Shown: in pieces, positions 14,390 to 21,400 of the stretch
How positions within the stretch are numbered: the first letter of the stretch is position 1
How the letters are laid out: each line of letters opens with the position of its first letter
DNA from: a virus
Taxonomy: Duplodnaviria > Heunggongvirae > Uroviricota > Caudoviricetes
IMG/VR virus record: IMGVR_UViG_2778261544_000010
Location: 1 to 32,649 of that record
Length of the DNA stretch: 32,649 bases
Strand: one strand, 5' to 3'
The notes under the pieces: generated by a model
What the model was told of the DNA's origin: nothing
Seen by the model: only the letters and a program-made list of their open reading frames with translations
Database searches by the model: none
Translations under genes and position numbers: made by a program

Positions 14390-14552
14390 GATTCCTCCTT
14401 GCTGCCAGTCGCAACCATTTTTTATCAACCAGGCTGGCGGTATATCCGAGCAGTGTTGGTATTTCGGATGGTTTCAGCTCAGGCTTACGCTTACGACGAT
14501 TTGGTACTCTGTAGATGTGTCCGTTCATGACACGAATAAGCGGTGTAGCCAT
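14383..14552 (-). CDS. ninE: NinE-like protein (56 aa)
   Basis: Not in the ORF track (under 60 aa). I translated it by hand: [56 protein letters not shown]. Its ATG overlaps the ybcN stop (TAATG). Confidence 0.7.
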
Positions 14553-15007
14553 TACGCCTCCTGCTTGTCGCGCAGCAGCTGGAACTCGCAGCTCTGCGGA
14601 ATAGTCAGGTGGCAGCCAATATTCACCGCCCAGGCTTCAACCTTACACAGGAAGACATACATCTCTCCGGTATCAAGATCGGAGGTATGGCGTAACGACT
14701 GGATAGTGGTGATATCACCGGTTACGACATCAACCAGGTCCTTGGTTTCATAACCGAGGTATGTGTGTTTGAGAGCATCTTTTACCCAATCTGGAGTGGC
14801 AAACGTTTTACCCCTGCTGATGAGGTATTCACTGATTTCGCTGTACCACATGTGGCTGAGTGCATTCTGGGAAAGACTGCGTTTCTCACGCCACGGTTTA
14901 AGCACCATGCGAAAGCATTTGCCTTCCTCCAGATAAGGCTGGATCTGCTGGCCGATAGCGGTGAAGTTACCACGATGCAATTTGATGCCGTCTTGTGGGA
15001 GGTTCAC
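14552..15007 (-). CDS. ybcN: NinB/Orf-family recombination protein (DLP12 YbcN-like)
   Basis: 151 aa [55 protein letters not shown]... matches YbcN. GTG start with GGAGGTG RBS. Confidence 0.9.
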
Positions 15008-15036
15008 GCTTCACCTCCGCAGAGGTCAAACGCTGG

Positions 15037-15190
15037 ATGCAAAAAATCGCAGGTGCATCTCTGCATCTGTGAAGGGAGAAGAGAGTTTGGATTGTATGTG
15101 CGCATAAACGTCCCCGTTTAGCGCAGAAGTCACCGGAGTTGTTCAAGCTCCAATGGCATGATTATGGCTGGTTGATTATTGGAAATCAAA
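15037..15190. repeat. Direct repeat copy 1 (about 150 bp, roughly 85-88 percent identical to 16971-17124)
   Basis: Aligned by eye with the copy at 16971-17124; shared blocks include AAAAAATCG.AGGTGCAT.TCTGCATCTGTGAA and GGATTGTATGTGCGCATAAACGTCCCCGTTTAGCGCAGAAGTCACCGGAGTTGTTCA. Confidence 0.75.
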
Positions 15191-15201: not shown

Positions 15202-15711
15202 TTAGTCTGCCAAGTCTTCCTCAGTCGCAACTGGGTAATTCCAAATATCAAAAAAAGCTATAGCCTCCTGCCATTTGCTCCATAAGTTATCAAGTACTTG
15301 TGTAGGTTCCGTACTTTTAAAAACAGAATCAGCCGCATCACCGTTATGAACTTCCTCGTACAGTTCCATTATTAGCAGATTAACAAAGTACTGTTTCAAC
15401 ATTAATGCCTGATTACCTTCTTTCTGCTGGCTATCCTGCTTGATGATCTCCATCGCCCGTACTAGGCACCTGATGATATCCGCTGCATCATTAACGCTCC
15501 ATTCAGATCCGCGCTTATCTTTAGCTGATGAATTGGCTCTCTCAGCGCAAGCCTTTAAAGACTCATAAAGGTAAACTCTATTTTGTAGCTGCAGCACTTT
15601 TTTTGACGTGTACCAACTTGCAAGCGCCGACCCCGCTGCGGCTAATGTGCCAAACGCAGAAATGCCTGCTGCTATTGCACTTAAGTCGGCACTGTCAAAG
15701 TTCCACATCAT
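15202..15711 (-). CDS. Hypothetical membrane-anchored protein (169 aa), nin-region cargo
   Basis: Tandem ATG start preceded by AAGGTG. N-terminal hydrophobic helix LSAIAAGISAFGTLAAAGSALASW then a soluble domain. AT-rich. No homolog recognised. Confidence 0.6.
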   Translation of the reverse strand: MMWNFDSADLSAIAAGISAFGTLAAAGSALASWYTSKKVLQLQNRVYLYESLKACAERANSSAKDKRGSEWSVNDAADIIRCLVRAMEIIKQDSQQKEGNQALMLKQYFVNLLIMELYEEVHNGDAADSVFKSTEPTQVLDNLWSKWQEAIAFFDIWNYPVATEEDLAD

Positions 15712-15886
15712 CGTTACACCTTATATAAACACCCCTCAGTAATATCCAATAAGGTATGTGAACAATCAATATAATTTATATCCGTATCGGCACATAGCGA
15801 TTTTAATGCTACTGATAATGGTATCTTTTAGATTATATCGTCCAGTTCCAGTACCCGTATTTTATGAAATGGACTCGCACATTACC

Positions 15887-15927
15887 AAAAAAAATGCCAG
15901 CACTTCCGTCATCGCAGAATGCTGGCA
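15887..15927 (-). terminator. Putative intrinsic terminator downstream of the Bro-N gene
   Basis: 8-bp stem TGCCAGCA/TGCTGGCA with a long loop, followed on the minus strand by a run of 8 T. Confidence 0.4.
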
Positions 15928-15946
15928 GTATTTCTAACTAGTGACT

Positions 15947-16555
15947 TTATTGCAACAGATTCTGACGGAAATATGGTAACACACGACTCCACTTATCATC
16001 CTGCCACGGTTGGAATTTTACATGCGCCGTTTCTCTGGCAAGGATTTCTCGCGCCCTGTTGAGTATCCGAGGATATTCTTGTTCGATTGAAGTGAATCTA
16101 CCTGCTTCGCGATGCTCCGCAACCTGAAGAAGAGGAGTAACGTTCTGGCAGGCGGTTAACATCGCATCCCCAGCTCGCCATAACCAAGCAAGTGTGCAAA
16201 GTTCGTTATCAGTGAATTGTTTTGTGATCGGGGATTGTTGAACTTCTCGATCGAGAATATCCAGAACCCAGCGGCGGAACTCTTTGGCTACAGGAGTTCG
16301 TGCAAACATGGCGATCAAATGGGCTCCGCGAAGGCTAAATACTCGAGACTCCTGCATTCCACGAGGGGTGGTCACTTTGACCACCCTTGTCATCATATCT
16401 GTAAATTCATCTGAGTGACGAGAGTAAATGCGCTGAACTGCTTTATCGTCCGCATATTCCAGAGCTAAACCAACTTCAGTGGCAGTAAGCCAAATTCTGT
16501 TATTGTGGCAAATTGGGGTAAACGTCGTTTTGTGGAATGCTAATTGAGTAGTCAT
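15947..16555 (-). CDS. Bro-N domain protein (phage antirepressor-like)
   Basis: N-terminal pattern FHKTTFTPICHNNRIWLTATEVGLALEY fits the Bro-N signature. RBS GAGGTG. Confidence 0.75.
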   Translation of the reverse strand: MTTQLAFHKTTFTPICHNNRIWLTATEVGLALEYADDKAVQRIYSRHSDEFTDMMTRVVKVTTPRGMQESRVFSLRGAHLIAMFARTPVAKEFRRWVLDILDREVQQSPITKQFTDNELCTLAWLWRAGDAMLTACQNVTPLLQVAEHREAGRFTSIEQEYPRILNRAREILARETAHVKFQPWQDDKWSRVLPYFRQNLLQ

Positions 16556-16818
16556 AGTTTCACCTCATCAGGTTAACCATCACCACCAACGACGCCAATC
16601 GACTGGTGGTGAACTGTGCAAGGTTGGCGTAACCGGCTACTCAAATCCGGCGCTCCCGAAGAAGCCCTCACACAGCCCACCATAATTTGGGCGTAGCCGT
16701 GCTTAGCGCATAAAAAAACCGCTTAACGCGGTATGCGTTGAGTAGTATTCCGGGACGCCAATCCCGTGTGCCGATTTTGCGGCAACGCACAGAATATATC
16801 CCCAGATAAATCATGTCG

Positions 16819-16908: not shown

Positions 16909-16970
16909 ATCACCTTTAGCCGCCAGACGAATAGAGACTCCCAATTCTGGCTGTCGAAGTAAAACACCGA

Positions 16971-17124
16971 ATGTAAAAAATCGTAGGTGCATTTCTGCAT
17001 CTGTGAATGGAGAAGATAGGTTGGATTGTATGTGCGCATAAACGTCCCCGTTTAGCGCAGAAGTCACCGGAGTTGTTCAGGCTCCGGTGATACAATTATG
17101 GCGAATTGATTATTCATAATCAAA
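16971..17124. repeat. Direct repeat copy 2 (partner of 15037-15190)
   Basis: See copy 1. This copy contains a perfect 9-bp hairpin TCACCGGAG...CTCCGGTGA that is disrupted in copy 1. Confidence 0.75.
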
Positions 17125-17388: not shown

Positions 17389-18432
17389 ATGAAAATTAAC
17401 AAGATATTATCATCTGCAACACTATTGTATGGTATGTCAATGGCCATGTCGGTCGGGAGTTGTGCAACACCTGTCCAGACTAATCTTCCTGGTTACACCC
17501 CGGGTGCAGATATCATTAGTGTTTCACCGACCAGAAACCAGGTCGATCTCATTGGTGATGTTGTTTATTCCCAGATAAAAGGAACTCGTTCTGTCAGACA
17601 GCTTCACATGTCAGTTCTTGTCCCGCGAACAAATGATTTAAAACCAGCCATTATTTATTATCCCGGCGGCGGATTCATGTCTTCTGAACATGACAAATTT
17701 ATTGAAATGAGAATGGCTCTGGCAGAAGCTGGTTTTGTTGTGGCCGCTGTAGAATACAGAACAATTCCTGATACATTTCCAGCACCAGTTGAGGATGGAA
17801 AAGCTGCAATACGTTACCTGAGAGAGCATGCCAGCAATTATGGGATTGATCCTCAAAGAATCGGAGTTCTGGGTGACTCTGCCGGTGGATGGCTTGCTCA
17901 GATGATGGGAACTACAAATGGTGACAAAACCTTTGATAAAGGTGACTTTCTTCAGCAATCCTCAGATGTTCAGGCAGTTGCCACACTTTATGGGATTTCT
18001 GACTTGTTGAATATTGGCGAAGGGTTCCCTGAATCAGTGCAGGAGGTTCATCGCTCTCCTGCCGTAACCGAAGCCTTAATGATCAATGGCCCTGCATTCA
18101 GAGATTTTGCGGGAGCCCCCATCACAGCGTCAAAAGAAAAAGCGCTAAACGCCAGTCCAATCGGACATATGAAAGGAGTAAAACCCCCATTTCTTATTAT
18201 GCATGGTAGCAAAGACACTCTGGTTTCACCTGAGCAAAGCGCCAAACTATTCAGGATGTTGAAGAAGAACGGCGATAACGCTGAGTACGTGCTAGTAGAA
18301 GGGGCTGAGCATGGCGATGATACATGGTATCAGCCAATTATTATAAACAGAGTCGTTGAGTGGTTTACTAAAAACCTGGGAGCCCCCATAAAAACCACTA
18401 ACCAACAACAGAACCCAAACGCTAACCTGTAA
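17389..18432 (+). CDS. Secreted alpha/beta-hydrolase (esterase/lipase family)
   Basis: Signal peptide MKINKILSSATLLYGMSMAMSVGSC, oxyanion-hole motif YYPGGGF, nucleophile motif GDSAGGW, C-terminal HG. Confidence 0.8.
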   Translation: MKINKILSSATLLYGMSMAMSVGSCATPVQTNLPGYTPGADIISVSPTRNQVDLIGDVVYSQIKGTRSVRQLHMSVLVPRTNDLKPAIIYYPGGGFMSSEHDKFIEMRMALAEAGFVVAAVEYRTIPDTFPAPVEDGKAAIRYLREHASNYGIDPQRIGVLGDSAGGWLAQMMGTTNGDKTFDKGDFLQQSSDVQAVATLYGISDLLNIGEGFPESVQEVHRSPAVTEALMINGPAFRDFAGAPITASKEKALNASPIGHMKGVKPPFLIMHGSKDTLVSPEQSAKLFRMLKKNGDNAEYVLVEGAEHGDDTWYQPIIINRVVEWFTKNLGAPIKTTNQQQNPNANL

Positions 18433-18470
18433 AAAGAGGGAGGGCTTAGCCCTCCCTATTCTGTTTTGTT
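18431..18470. terminator. Bidirectional intrinsic terminator between the convergent esterase and adhesin genes
   Basis: AAAAA-AGGGAGGG-CTTAG-CCCTCCCT-ATTCTGTTTTGTT: GC-rich 8-bp stem with T-rich flanks on both strands. Confidence 0.6.
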
Positions 18471-21400
18471 AACTGTCCTTTTCAGGAAGTTTTACAACAA
18501 AAGTTGTTAATTCTTTCTCATACGTTTTTTTACTATTTGTTATTTTGGCCTTAATCCAGTGATAACCGCTTTCATAGGTGCTGAACTCCGAGGCAGCGTT
18601 ACCTGTCGAGCTTAACGTTACTGTAGCAGGTTCCATTTTGACGCGTTGAGAGGTTGGGCTATCTTCACTACCAGCAGAAAACTCAACCGTACCAGACAAT
18701 GGGTTTCCAAAATGATCGACAAATCGAGCATAAATACCTGTTGGAGAGCCGTCATTAACCTCATAACCATAGTCTTTTTCAAGACTCAGAACCCCATTTG
18801 CTTCATCAGCGTACAGGGAGAATGATTTCACCGCGCTAACATCACTACCAAGTTCGTTTAAGGTCGCCGTTAATTTATACGAACCAGCCGTTCGACCATG
18901 TACGCTTACCGTAGCCTGGCCGCGCTCATCAGTCGTTACTGTGGTTTTATCAACCACCAACGCACCATATTTGGACGGTCCAGAGGTCTTAATATTCAGT
19001 GCTCGACCACTTAATGCTTCGCCTGACGTATTTTTCAGATGCAACGTAAATGTAAGATTGTTGGAATCGCTCACAACAGCAGAAGATACAGATGATGTGA
19101 TATCCAACACAGCATCCTTCACATCCGTCATGGCATCAATATTTTGGCTTGCAGTTATGCGTTTCCCATCCTGAACATGCTCGGCCTGAATTGTGTACTG
19201 GCCCGATTTCGATGCAGTGAACTGCGTTGATGCCTTTCCATAAGCATCCAGCTGCAGTTTACTGCTGGTCAATGATGCTCCCGTCGATGGGGTGATCGTT
19301 AAATTTACATCACCGGTAAATGCATTGTTATTGGCATCAACCAACTGAATGTCTACTGTTGCACTTTCACTGCTATCGGCCACAATCTGCTGTTTTGATA
19401 CACTCATAGTGAGTTCTGCGGAAGCAATATCTGGCACAAAAGTTAACTTAACGCTGCCAGATTCCACACTATTAGAACCATCAGTCACCCGTGCAGTTAC
19501 CGTGTACTCACCAGCTTTCACCGTTGTAACTGGTACAGAAACATGCCCTGTTGAATCAGTCACGATATTTGTCGGCACAGACAACCCTTCAGATGAGGTA
19601 ATGAGCTGAACCTTCTGTCCATTAACCGACGCATTAGTATTATTTGTTAGCTGAACATTCAATACCGCAGCATCTTTACCATTAGCAGGGATATTCGAAA
19701 TTAAGCTACTGTTTTCAGGCGTCAGTGACAGTGAAGCTCCGCTCATATTTGATGCAAAGGTCACAGTTAACTCAGTAGATACCTGAGGCCCAGCATGAGC
19801 TTTAATCACGTAAGAACCTGGAGTGGAGCTTATTAACGCAAAAACAGCATTACCATTTTCGTCAGTTGACACTGCATGTTCACCACCAACTTGAGTTATC
19901 CCCGCAGGTAAGGACAACGTAACAGCATAACCAGGAACAACATTGCCGAAACGATCAGCAAGACTTACAGTCACTGTATTCTGTTGTTTTCCATCAGCCA
20001 ATGCATTATTTTTACTGGCTTCAATACGAGAGAACGCGAACTGAATTCGGTCTTCCATAAAGGAGATTTCTTTCTCAAGGTCGGAGAAATCGTGACGATC
20101 CGATTTAACACCGATCCGAATCTTATCTGCTCGTTTTGAAGTTACTGTTGCGCTATAGACACCATCTTTTTCCGTTACAGTCCCAAACTCGACTCCTTCA
20201 GCCTGGTTAATGGCATAAAAGCTCAGAGTATTATCACCTGTGATTGCATTTCCTTGTGAATCCTTCACTGCCAGTTGTAGATTAATATTGTAACCAACTA
20301 CCTGCTCTGCTGGTGCAGCGGTTAAAACAGCACTGACCTCAGATTCAGGTTCTGTTGCTGCTGTTTGCTTAATACTGAGAGTAAAGGTTTTTCCCTGAAC
20401 TTTTGCAGTTACACGTACCGTACCAGCCTGCGAACCAGCAGTCAGAACAGAGCGATATACCCCAGCAGAGATTTCCTCTACCGCGCCTAATGACGGGGCA
20501 GTTACCGTTTCACGCTGTCGAGCACTATTGCTATCTGCTGTAAATTCCACTGACATTTCAATGTCATCAGCCAGTCCGGTTAATGCCTTACCGTTACTGT
20601 CTTTCAGGCTTAATACTATCGGATAAGTAGATTGGCTATCAGCAGAGATCGTCGGCGACGAATCTCCATCCAGTGTAAAAGACGAATCAGCTGTCGATAC
20701 ATCACTATCAGTGATGGCTGCCTGCTTAATATTCAGAGTAAAGGTTTTTCCCTGAACTTTTGCGGTTACACGTACCGTACCAGCCTGCGAACCAGCAGTC
20801 AGAACAGAGCGATATACCCCAGCAGAGATTTCCTCTACCGCGCCTAATGACGGGGCAGTTACCGTTTCACGCTGTCGAGCACTATTGCTATCTGCTGTAA
20901 ATTCCACTGACATTTCAATGTCATCAGCCAGTCCGGTTAATGCCTTACCGTTACTGTCTTTCAGGCTTAATACTATCGGATAAGTAGATTGGCTATCAGC
21001 AGAGATCGTCGGCGACGAATCTCCATCCAGTGTAAAAGACGAATCAGCTGTCGATACACCACTATCAGTAACGCTAATATTCATCACGGCATAGTTGGAC
21101 ACGTTGCCTCTGTTATCCTGTACTGTGGCTCCAACACTCCACGAATTTACACCTTCGCTTTTATAAGCCGGTAAAGTGATCTGCCATGATGTGCCATTTC
21201 CACTGATCTTGCCGCCAGCCGCAGTGAATGCACTATCATTCCACTGTACAGACTTGATACCACCACTGGCATTGTTGACTGTCAGTGTTACAGGGATGAT
21301 TGATTCCCCCTCCCCCTGAATAGACTCTGGCAAACTGATTTTCAGTGCATGCTTTTTCTTGTACTCCAGAACAATGTTGTTATTTCGTTCAACAAAATCA

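What the first reader, a model, noticed from the sequence alone, without database searches (positions are those of the whole stretch)
15202..15946. Self-contained membrane-protein gene in the nin region
A 169-aa protein with one N-terminal hydrophobic helix and no recognisable homology has a strong RBS (AAGGTG) and tandem ATG start. It lies in AT-rich DNA just after a terminator that closes the upstream Bro-N gene. This is the classic autonomous cargo-gene layout seen for lysogen-expressed exclusion genes.
Basis: partly seen in the sequence, partly recalled or inferred. Interest (0 to 1): 0.5.

Follow-up and report, generated by a model that had tools for sequence, protein, structure and literature searches.

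The report
Self-promoted membrane-anchored prophage accessory gene
This is a real, conserved but uncharacterised prophage gene with its own promoter that encodes a small protein probably anchored in the inner membrane; its layout fits a cargo gene involved in phage-versus-phage conflict, but what it does has not been tested.

Summary
A 169-aa ORF (15202-15711, minus strand) has an AAGGTG Shine-Dalgarno sequence and sits 176 nt after a strong intrinsic terminator that closes the Bro-N/P22AR antirepressor gene. The DNA around it is AT-rich.

The gene is real: dN/dS is about 0.1 against homologues whose synonymous sites are saturated. It matches PHROG 1779 (unknown function) over its full length.

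New here: a sigma-70-type promoter (TTGATT-17 nt-GATATT, 15769-15741) is conserved with an invariant spacer in seven lineages. Several relatives also carry their own terminator downstream. Related phages with the same backbone lack the gene.

The family is tiny, 35 representatives in 1.84 billion proteins, all from lambdoid prophages where context was checked. It has no Pfam, NCBIfam, PADLOC, PDB or fold match.

All 31 members aligned keep an Ala/Gly/Ser-rich N-terminal hydrophobic helix whose flanking charges predict N-out/C-in. This is followed by a helical cytoplasmic domain and usually a D-x-D-L-x-D tail.

Against a simple moron reading: its position just before ylcH-ninB is fixed, distant relatives lie inside the early-left operon, and the window copy has no terminator of its own.

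Verdict: an autonomous accessory gene, well supported. An exclusion or defence role is plausible but only inferred. Moderate interest.

The parts
15202..15711 (-). Coding sequence of the 169-aa protein. The stop codon is 15204-15202. The conserved family start is the second ATG, at 15708.
   Evidence: ORF list. Full-length match to PHROG 1779, E = 2e-102. Homologues at 45-99% identity with conserved length. dN/dS 0.08-0.16. Sister loci read ATA-ATG.
15717..15722 (-). Shine-Dalgarno sequence AAGGTG, 5 nt before ATG 15711 and 8 nt before ATG 15708.
   Evidence: Sequence. GAGGTG, GAGGAA or AAGGAG occupies the same place in most homologous loci.
15741..15769 (-). Predicted sigma-70 promoter: -35 TTGATT (15769-15764), 17-nt spacer, -10 GATATT (15746-15741). 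An A/T-rich stretch lies upstream. The predicted start of transcription is near 15735, giving a leader of about 24 nt.
   Evidence: TTG(A/C)(T/C)(T/A)-17 nt-GATATT(A) is kept in seven lineages, with an invariant 17-nt spacer and an invariant GATATTA. Coding third positions between those lineages are only 35-57% identical. It scores 8 of 12 consensus positions, below the threshold of the simple scan. Activity has not been tested.
15887..15927 (-). Intrinsic terminator closing the antirepressor gene: stem TGCCAGCA...TGCTGGCA followed by eight U.
   Evidence: Folding energy -21 kcal/mol for the 67-nt stretch, z = -2.83, with 2 of 200 shuffles as stable. Conserved at 94-100% in all 41 E. coli-type loci fetched from other collections (L001, L011-L048, L050), behind at least three different antirepressor N-termini.
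15616..15684 (-). Codons for residues 10-32: an Ala/Gly/Ser-rich hydrophobic helix, the predicted N-out/C-in membrane anchor.
   Evidence: Kyte-Doolittle 19-residue maxima are 1.5-2.5 in all 31 family members. The N side is net negative or neutral, and the C side is net positive in 28 of 31. The best 19-residue window is 37-68% Ala/Gly/Ser. AlphaFold confidence is low here. Membrane insertion has not been tested.
15205..15225 (-). Codons for the conserved acidic C-terminal tail, A-T-E-E-D-L-A-D (family motif D-x-D-L-x-D at the C-terminus).
   Evidence: Invariant T163, E165, D166, L167 and D169 in the close family. Present in most distant members but absent from about a quarter of them.
15947..16555 (-). 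Context: upstream antirepressor gene (Bro-N + P22AR_C). It is preceded by isrK (16712-16784) and C4 antisense RNA (16602-16687).
   Evidence: Pfam, PHROGs, Rfam.
15022..15190 (-). Context: the next unit downstream. This is copy A of a 169-nt direct repeat; copy B is at 16956-17124. It contains TTGATT-17 nt-CATAAT, two hairpins and the start of a ylcH-like 33-codon ORF (15105-15004) that overlaps the ybcN start.
   Evidence: Repeats. Alignments. Phage 82 annotation. Covariation. Folding z = -3.4.

Best explanation
The locus is an autonomous accessory ('moron-type') transcription unit carried in the nin region of a lambdoid prophage.

Shown:
- It is a real gene under strong purifying selection.
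- It has a conserved sigma-70-type promoter 30 nt upstream of a good ribosome-binding site.
- A strong intrinsic terminator just upstream insulates it from the antirepressor module.
- It is present in some phages and absent from others that share the same backbone.

Inferred:
- The promoter carries no operator for the prophage repressor. It can therefore fire in the lysogen, while terminator-resistant transcription from pR also reads through it during lytic growth.
- The product is a bitopic inner-membrane protein. Its short acidic N-terminus faces the periplasm. An Ala/Gly/Ser-rich anchor helix spans the membrane and may self-associate.
- The cytoplasmic part is an all-helical domain of about 130 residues with no catalytic signature. 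It ends in an acidic D-x-D-L-x-D tail that would serve as a docking motif.

Most likely role, by inference only: a protein-binding factor at the cytoplasmic face of the inner membrane that acts in phage-versus-phage conflict. This would be superinfection exclusion at DNA entry, or abortive infection through the membrane, for the benefit of the lysogen.
For: - Real gene: dN/dS 0.08-0.16 with saturated synonymous sites; PHROG 1779 over full length.
- Promoter: TTGnnn-17 nt-GATATTA is invariant in spacing in seven lineages. Two further lineages have TATAAT preceded by TG in the same place.
- No repressor control detected: in locus L003 the immunity operators (ATACA..TGTAT) are unrelated to the promoter region. 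The window's AACAACC/GGTTGTT operator half-sites do not occur in the 15712-15946 sequence (read by eye).
- Upstream terminator: -21 kcal/mol with eight U.
- Own downstream terminators in three other lineages: GGCCTCTCCGGAGGCCTTTTT, CCGCC..GGCGGTTTTTTT and CCTGC..GCAGGTTTTTTT.
- Low GC.
- Presence/absence: 29 phage records carry the ylcH-ninB leader element, but only 2 carry this gene. PhiR30_1 has the same O-P-ren...NinB-YbcO-RusA-Q backbone without it.
- Neighbouring slot swaps cargo: PD-Lambda-1, an HEC-07-like gene, lipoproteins, or an esterase plus invasin.
- Retention: the gene is kept intact in short prophage remnants (loci L058, L061).
- Anchor helix and charge asymmetry are conserved across all 31 members.
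- No conserved catalytic-type residues.
- The helical core is modelled at pLDDT 80-92.
Against: - No expression or phenotype data exist; a literature search by accession numbers found nothing.
- No similarity to any known exclusion or defence protein: PADLOC's best hit is E = 0.02 over the hydrophobic helix, and hhalign against lambda SieB gives 0.05% probability.
- The position immediately upstream of ylcH-ninB is fixed across genera and across replication modules. This is unusual for freely swapping cargo.
- Relatives below 30% identity lie inside the early-left operon. In one of them the TTG start overlaps the stop codon of a DNA polymerase III theta homologue.
- The window copy has no canonical terminator before ybcN. 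Transcripts from the promoter would therefore run towards Q unless stopped elsewhere.
- The window's anchor helix is borderline. The Kyte-Doolittle mean is 1.59, and the summed Hessa-type scale is +2.7 kcal/mol.
- One lineage (L054) lacks the promoter.
Confidence: 0.4

Rival explanations
1. It is an early-lytic accessory gene. Its product is made mainly from terminator-resistant pR (or pL) transcription after induction or infection. It serves the phage itself, for example by host takeover, by countering a host or prophage defence (as lambda Ren or Ral do from comparable positions), or by inhibiting cell division or a membrane process. The dedicated promoter only supplements this expression.
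For: - The gene is co-oriented with the early-right operon and always sits at the same place before ylcH-ninB, with different replication modules.
- Distant members lie in the early-left operon between N and xis-int. One has a start that overlaps the stop of the upstream early gene.
- In loci without the antirepressor module, only 80-107 nt and no terminator separate it from the upstream early gene.
- There is no terminator of its own in the window.
Against: - A promoter conserved under saturation of neutral sites is not needed for a gene read from pR.
- Terminators follow the gene in three lineages.
- The gene is kept intact in decayed prophage remnants that can no longer grow lytically.
Confidence: 0.3
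2. It is not a membrane protein. The Ala-rich N-terminal helix is an oligomerisation or coiled-coil element, or an amphipathic surface-binding helix, of a soluble helical protein.
For: - Hydrophobicity of the window copy is borderline (1.59). The simple Hessa-type sum is positive in most members.
- In one AlphaFold model the helix runs continuously from residue 10 to 63.
- The segment is 37-68% Ala/Gly/Ser.
Against: - A hydrophobic stretch of 19 or more residues without charges is kept in all 31 members.
- The N flank is acidic or neutral in every member, and the C flank is net basic in 28 of 31. Positive-inside asymmetry is a hallmark of membrane anchors.
- Many members score 2.0-2.5.
- The hydrophobic moment is low in the window copy, 0.49.
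Confidence: 0.13
3. It is a functional partner of its neighbours. It would be either part of the isrK-C4-antirepressor switch, or a regulator of the structured leader and ylcH-ninB genes that always follow it.
For: - In all 41 E. coli-type loci fetched from other collections, and in the window itself, it follows the 3' end of a P22AR_C gene plus the terminator.
- In nearly all pR-lineage loci it directly precedes the conserved promoter-hairpin-ylcH-ninB element.
- In E. coli the whole 1.93-kb unit is bracketed by 169-nt direct repeats and is gained or lost together.
Against: - Outside E. coli the gene occurs without any antirepressor.
- Distant members are in the other early operon, far from ninB.
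- A terminator and a promoter separate it from the antirepressor gene.
- No nucleic-acid-binding signature is present.
Confidence: 0.07

Closest known systems
Morons of lambdoid phages as defined for HK97 and HK022 (promoter + gene + terminator inserted between conserved genes). An example is the HK97 gp15 superinfection-exclusion moron. This comparison is from my own knowledge of that literature and was not checked here.
   Same: It has its own promoter and a flanking intrinsic terminator. Its GC is lower than its neighbours'. It is present in some phages and absent from others with the same backbone. It encodes a small protein with an N-terminal hydrophobic helix.
   Different: The terminator lies upstream rather than downstream in the window copy. 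The position is fixed next to ninB rather than in the late region. Expression in the lysogen and an exclusion phenotype have not been shown. There is no sequence similarity.
Lambda/P22 SieB (Pfam PF14163), a membrane-associated superinfection exclusion protein encoded within the early-left region under its own promoter.
   Same: Similar size (184 against 169 aa). Hydrophobic N-terminal part followed by a soluble part. Encoded among early genes of lambdoid phages; distant members of this family sit in the equivalent early-left region.
   Different: No homology: there is no Pfam hit, and hhalign gives 0.05% probability. Lambda sieB is transcribed against pL, whereas this gene is co-oriented with the early operon.
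Lambda Ren and other accessory genes between the replication genes and ninB.
   Same: Same genomic neighbourhood and orientation. The region is dispensable and variable.
   Different: Ren has no hydrophobic anchor and is unrelated. In PhiR26_1 and PhiR30_1, ren is present as a separate gene upstream.
Bitopic N-out/C-in inner-membrane proteins of E. coli such as ZipA and DjlA. This is a comparison of architecture only, from my own knowledge.
   Same: A short periplasmic N-terminus, a single N-terminal anchor without a cleavable signal peptide, and a cytoplasmic protein-binding domain.
   Different: No sequence or fold similarity was found. The anchor is unusually rich in Ala, Gly and Ser.

Membership tests
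PHROG 1779 (phage protein family of unknown function) | Full-length match to the family profile | tested here: met
   E = 2.1e-102, residues 1-169 against profile positions 1-169 of 169.
Moron / autonomous accessory transcription unit | Own promoter immediately upstream | tested here: met
   Met in silico only. TTGATT-17 nt-GATATT is conserved with an invariant spacer in seven lineages whose synonymous sites are saturated. Activity was not measured.
Moron / autonomous accessory transcription unit | Intrinsic terminator at the 3' end of the unit | tested here: inconclusive
   The window copy has none. The only candidate is a weak terminator-like hairpin at 15065-15048, inside the ylcH-like ORF. 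Strong terminators do follow the gene in lineages L051-L056, L058/L060 and L064.
Moron / autonomous accessory transcription unit | Present in some and absent from other genomes that are otherwise collinear | tested here: met
   The ylcH-ninB leader element is in 29 phage records, but the gene is in only 2. PhiR30_1 and phage 82 lack it. It is present in 176 of 5426 complete E. coli genomes.
Moron / autonomous accessory transcription unit | Base composition differs from flanking core genes | tested here: met
   43.9% GC in the ORF and 36.6% in the upstream spacer, against 51-53% in ybcN and rusA.
Moron / autonomous accessory transcription unit | Transcribed in the repressed prophage | not testable with these tools
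   No transcript data are available. No prophage-repressor operator was found at the promoter (with the sequence read by eye).
SieB superinfection exclusion (PF14163) | Sequence or profile similarity to SieB | tested here: not met
   No Pfam hit at E <= 0.1 for the protein. SieB is not among the 25 families listed for the 31 members scanned at E <= 1. hhalign of the family profile against lambda SieB gives 0.05% probability.
Known anti-phage defence systems (PADLOC-DB 2.0) | Match to a defence-protein model | tested here: not met
   The only hit is a CARF model at E = 0.02, covering residues 16-51, which overlap the hydrophobic helix.
HEPN-domain toxins (weak Foldseek neighbours) | Significant fold match and the R-x(4-6)-H motif | tested here: not met
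   Foldseek E is about 1 and TM-score at most 0.30. No conserved histidine follows the conserved Arg58.
Bitopic inner-membrane protein (N-out/C-in) | One hydrophobic segment of about 20 residues with positive-inside charge bias | tested here: met
   Kyte-Doolittle maxima are 1.5-2.5 in all 31 members. The N flank is net -4 to 0. The C flank is net positive in 28 of 31 members (range -1 to +5). This is prediction only; the window copy is borderline at 1.59.

The most novel reading that the evidence does not exclude
The family would be a previously unrecognised single-gene superinfection-exclusion or abortive-infection determinant of enterobacterial lambdoid prophages. It would have a fold unlike any solved structure. 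A weakly hydrophobic N-out anchor would tether a cytoplasmic helical sensor or adaptor, and the conserved acidic D-x-D-L-x-D tail would recruit a host or phage partner at the membrane. Expression would come from a dedicated, repressor-independent promoter in the lysogen.
Probability: 0.25. Interest if true: 0.55.

Novelty: new member of a known kind. Interest (0 to 1): 0.35.

Why it matters
If the gene proves to protect lysogens, it would add a one-protein, membrane-anchored exclusion system with a new fold to the list of prophage defences. It would also mark the end of the replication-to-ninB gap nearest ninB as a place to look for more of them. In sister phages that gap already carries PD-Lambda-1 and other cargo.

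The gene is directly testable. Two inducible, plaque-forming phages that grow on laboratory E. coli, PhiR26_1 and PhiR5_1, carry it at 96-98% protein identity.

If it instead serves lytic growth, it is one more uncharacterised early accessory gene, and of modest interest.

Tried and rejected
**Searches for a known relative, all negative**
- Pfam, NCBIfam and PADLOC scans of the protein found nothing meaningful. A Pfam scan of 31 family members gave only scattered single-member noise.
- A family-profile search of all PDB sequences gave a best E of 1.3.
- A SieB relationship was rejected by hhalign.
- HEPN was rejected because the motif is absent.

**Other leads that gave nothing**
- Holin or antiholin: the gene is not in the lysis cassette.
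- The conserved TTGGATATTAC motif does not recur in the window above chance: 3 hits at up to 1 mismatch, matched by 2 of 100 shuffles.
- No prophage-repressor operator was found at the promoter.
- An inverted repeat (ATACCCT...AGGGTAT) brackets the -10 element in non-E. coli lineages, but it is degenerate in the window. An RNA fold that would mask the ribosome-binding site in read-through transcripts is not significant, z = -0.26. Neither was relied upon.
- The simple promoter scan flagged TTGGTA-18-TAAAAT (15888-15859). A perfect TATAAT lies at 15837-15832. Both fall in sequence that exists only in the E. coli lineage, so conservation could not test them.
- Literature searches by accession numbers, PHROG number and phage name found nothing.
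- A back-translation search with the wide alignment failed for lack of a conserved stretch.

Full report
**1. What is there**

On the minus strand the window reads as the early-right arm of a lambdoid prophage. In order it carries:
- O and P replication genes (23328-24347, 22630-23331);
- a cargo slot with a 1303-aa inverse-autotransporter/invasin-like gene (18469-22380) and, on the other strand, a lipoprotein-type esterase (17389-18432);
- copy B of a 169-nt repeat (16956-17124);
- isrK (16712-16784) and C4 antisense RNA (16602-16687);
- a Bro-N + P22AR_C antirepressor gene (15947-16555);
- the finding itself;
- copy A of the repeat (15022-15190);
- a ylcH-like 33-codon ORF, ybcN (a NinB-like gene, 14552-15007), a ybcO-like gene, rusA, and a Q-type gene.

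The finding consists of four features.
- An intrinsic terminator lies at 15927-15887: stem TGCCAGCA/TGCTGGCA followed by eight U. Its folding energy is -21 kcal/mol, z = -2.8.
- A 176-nt AT-rich spacer follows, at 36.6% GC.
- AAGGTG is at 15722-15717, with ATG-ATG at 15711-15706.
- A 169-codon ORF ends at 15202.

**2. Is it a real gene?**

Yes.
- It matches PHROG 1779 (unknown function) end to end, E = 2e-102.
- The word-indexed search of 5.8 billion proteins found 15 clusters. An exhaustive profile search of 1.84 billion representatives found only 35, of which 23 are at E <= 1e-10. The family is real but very small.
- Against homologues at 74% and 70% protein identity, pS is 0.66-0.72 and pN is 0.14-0.18, so dN/dS is about 0.08-0.10. 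Against more distant homologues, synonymous sites are saturated while length and frame are kept.
- The first of the two ATGs is ATA in six sister loci, and the family alignment starts at the second (M-x-W). The conserved start is therefore 15708.
- The full 901-bp region is in 176 of 5426 complete E. coli genomes.
- It is also in two sequenced, plaque-forming phages, PhiR26_1 and PhiR5_1.

**3. The regulatory anatomy**

Upstream regions from lineages with 49-83% protein identity still share one block:
- an A/T-rich run;
- TTG(A/C)(T/C)(T/A);
- exactly 17 nt;
- GATATT(A);
- then 27-32 nt to the start codon.

Third-codon positions between these lineages are only 35-57% identical, so this block is under selection. 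Its geometry is that of a sigma-70 promoter. In the window the -35 element is 15769-15764 and the -10 element is 15746-15741.

- Two more distant lineages (L009, L010) have TATAAT preceded by TG in the same place. One lineage (L054) lacks the block.
- The promoter matches 8 of 12 consensus positions, so the simple scan did not list it.
- In locus L003 the immunity operators (ATACA..TGTAT) are unrelated to this region. The window's own operator half-sites (AACAACC/GGTTGTT) do not appear in the 15712-15946 sequence (read by eye). Nothing therefore suggests control by the prophage repressor.

Downstream the picture is mixed.
- Three independent lineages carry a strong terminator right after the gene.
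- The window lineage does not. The stop codon is followed at once by the next promoter-like element.
- The only terminator-like hairpin (15065-15048) is weak, z = -1.4, and lies inside the ylcH-like ORF.

**4. Genomic behaviour**

*pR lineage (45-99% identity).* The gene is always co-oriented with the early operon and sits immediately before the ylcH-ninB leader, or before DUF1367 in one case. This holds whichever replication module is present (O/P or O/DnaB) and whichever genus: Escherichia, Scandinavium, Enterobacter or Phytobacter.

*Within E. coli.*
- In all 41 fetched E. coli-type loci and in the window, the gene follows the 3' end of a P22AR_C gene plus the terminator. At least three different antirepressor N-termini occur, and only some loci have isrK-C4.
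- The isrK-C4-antirepressor-gene unit is bracketed by two copies of the 169-nt leader, 1934 nt apart start to start. Copy A is the leader that is also present in phages lacking the unit.
- Phages with the same backbone, such as PhiR30_1 and phage 82, have a single leader copy and no unit.
- Overall the leader is in 29 phage records, but the gene is in only 2.

*The slot upstream of the unit* swaps cargo between sister loci:
- PD-Lambda-1 in 13 loci;
- an HEC-07-like gene;
- a serine recombinase;
- lipoproteins;
- a two-gene unit, one gene of which encodes a membrane protein;
- an esterase plus invasin in the window.

*pL lineage (below 30% identity).* These relatives are elsewhere, in the early-left operon.
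- In L058 the gene lies between N and xis-int and is followed by a terminator.
- In Pantoea (L064) it lies directly behind a DNA polymerase III theta homologue, with the TTG start overlapping the upstream stop codon. It is again followed by a terminator.
- Two of these contexts (L058, L061) are short prophage remnants in which the gene is still intact.

**5. The protein**

All 31 aligned members share one architecture:
- an acidic N-terminus of 5-12 residues, often M-S-W-H-x-G-D-W;
- an uncharged hydrophobic helix of about 20 residues that is 37-68% Ala/Gly/Ser, with Kyte-Doolittle 19-residue maxima of 1.5-2.5;
- a basic flank;
- a helical domain of about 120 residues;
- in most members, a C-terminal D-x-D-L-x-D.

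The charge asymmetry predicts N-out/C-in. The N flank is net -4 to 0. The C flank is net positive in 28 of 31 members (range -1 to +5). The window copy is one of the least hydrophobic (1.59; simple Hessa-type sum +2.7 kcal/mol), so insertion is likely but not certain.

Conserved positions are A56, N60, W71, A86, I90, F109, L113 and W147, with the ERAN motif in the close family. They are structural rather than catalytic.

There is no Pfam, NCBIfam, PADLOC or PDB-sequence relative, and no relation to lambda SieB.

**6. Interpretation**

The unit is well supported as an autonomous accessory gene: conserved promoter, insulating terminator, low GC, presence/absence polymorphism, and terminators in relatives.

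What it does is inferred. The protein would be a non-enzymatic, membrane-tethered cytoplasmic helical domain with a conserved acidic tail. It is encoded at the edge of a slot that trades defence genes and is kept in decayed prophages. This fits a lysogen-benefiting phage-conflict factor, either exclusion at DNA entry or membrane-based abortive infection. I put this at about 0.4.

The main rival, at about 0.3, is an early-lytic accessory function. It is favoured by the fixed position before ninB, the early-left-operon relatives (one with overlapping stop and start codons), and the lack of a terminator downstream in the window. A non-membrane reading (about 0.13) and a functional tie to the neighbouring modules (about 0.07) remain possible.

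**7. Novelty and interest**

The kind of thing, a promoter-bearing accessory gene in a lambdoid prophage, is well known. This family is uncharacterised and rare, and has no recognisable fold relative. I therefore file it as a new member of a known kind, with moderate interest (0.35). It is readily testable because cultivable phages carry it.

**8. Side observation**

The 169-nt unit that follows the gene is duplicated upstream of isrK. It is a conserved leader of ylcH-ninB.
- It starts with TTGATT-17 nt-CATAAT.
- Hairpin 1 has an invariant loop CCUGAACA(A/C). By eye, six different stems all stay paired, with G-U pairs only on this strand.
- Hairpin 2 has the loop GGGA. Four of its nine pairs show compensatory changes.
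- The two hairpins together fold with z = -3.4.
- There is no Rfam match at E <= 1.
- Phage 82 annotates hairpin 2 as a 'possible regulator-binding site', and phi80 annotates an 'IR4' inverted repeat within the matched region.

This may be a more unusual feature than the gene itself. I did not resolve it.

Noticed in passing
window 15022-15190 and 16956-17124 (minus strand): A 169-nt direct repeat (86% identity) brackets the isrK-C4-antirepressor-orf169 unit. It is the conserved leader of ylcH-ninB in phage 82, phi80 (where an 'IR4' repeat is annotated inside the match), HK639, HK225 and many prophages. It contains TTGATT-17 nt-CATAAT, a hairpin with the invariant loop CCUGAACA(A/C) and covarying stems, and a second hairpin with loop GGGA in which 4 of 9 pairs show compensatory changes. 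The hairpins fold with z = -3.4. There is no Rfam family at E <= 1. It could be an unrecognised cis-regulatory or small RNA of the nin region.
   Followed up: partly
window 15004-15105 (minus strand): A 33-codon ylcH/orf33-like ORF starts inside hairpin 2. Its TGA stop overlaps the GTG start of ybcN. Its C-terminal half (D-F-L-H-x-A-F-x-L-x-G-G-x-A) is conserved at the protein level in distant loci, which suggests a real small protein translationally coupled to ybcN.
   Followed up: partly
window 16602-16799 (minus strand): isrK (60.7 bits) and C4 antisense RNA (72.4 bits) pass the Rfam thresholds. A sub-threshold c4 target (a1b1) match is also present. All lie directly upstream of the Bro-N/P22AR antirepressor gene. 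This is a P1 immI-like / Gifsy-1 isrK-anrP-like antirepressor control module sitting in the nin region.
   Followed up: partly
window 17389-22380: The slot between the P replication gene and the repeat holds a lipoprotein-type esterase (BD-FAE / alpha-beta hydrolase) and a 1303-aa inverse autotransporter with Big_1 and invasin domains. Sister phages carry other cargo in the same slot: PD-Lambda-1 (13 loci), an HEC-07-like protein, a serine recombinase or lipoproteins.
   Followed up: partly
loci L058, L061, L064 (distant family members): Relatives below 30% identity lie in the early-left operon. In two lineages they sit directly behind a DNA polymerase III theta (HolE/Hot-like) homologue, once with overlapping stop and start codons. 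In L058/L060 and L064 a strong terminator follows. L058 and L061 are short prophage remnants in which the gene is still intact.
   Followed up: no
loci L002, L053, L055, L057 upstream of the gene; window 15731-15757: An inverted repeat (ATACCCT ... AGGGTAT, up to 9 bp) brackets the -10 element of the conserved promoter in non-E. coli lineages. L009 and L010 have an 8-bp GC-rich palindrome just after TATAAT. It is degenerate at the DNA level in the window. It could be an operator for an unknown regulator.
   Followed up: partly
locus L049 / protein P0002: One metagenomic homologue has an N-terminus that does not align with the family helix, while the rest is 79% identical. This looks like a frameshift or an assembly error in the anchor-coding part.
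   Followed up: no
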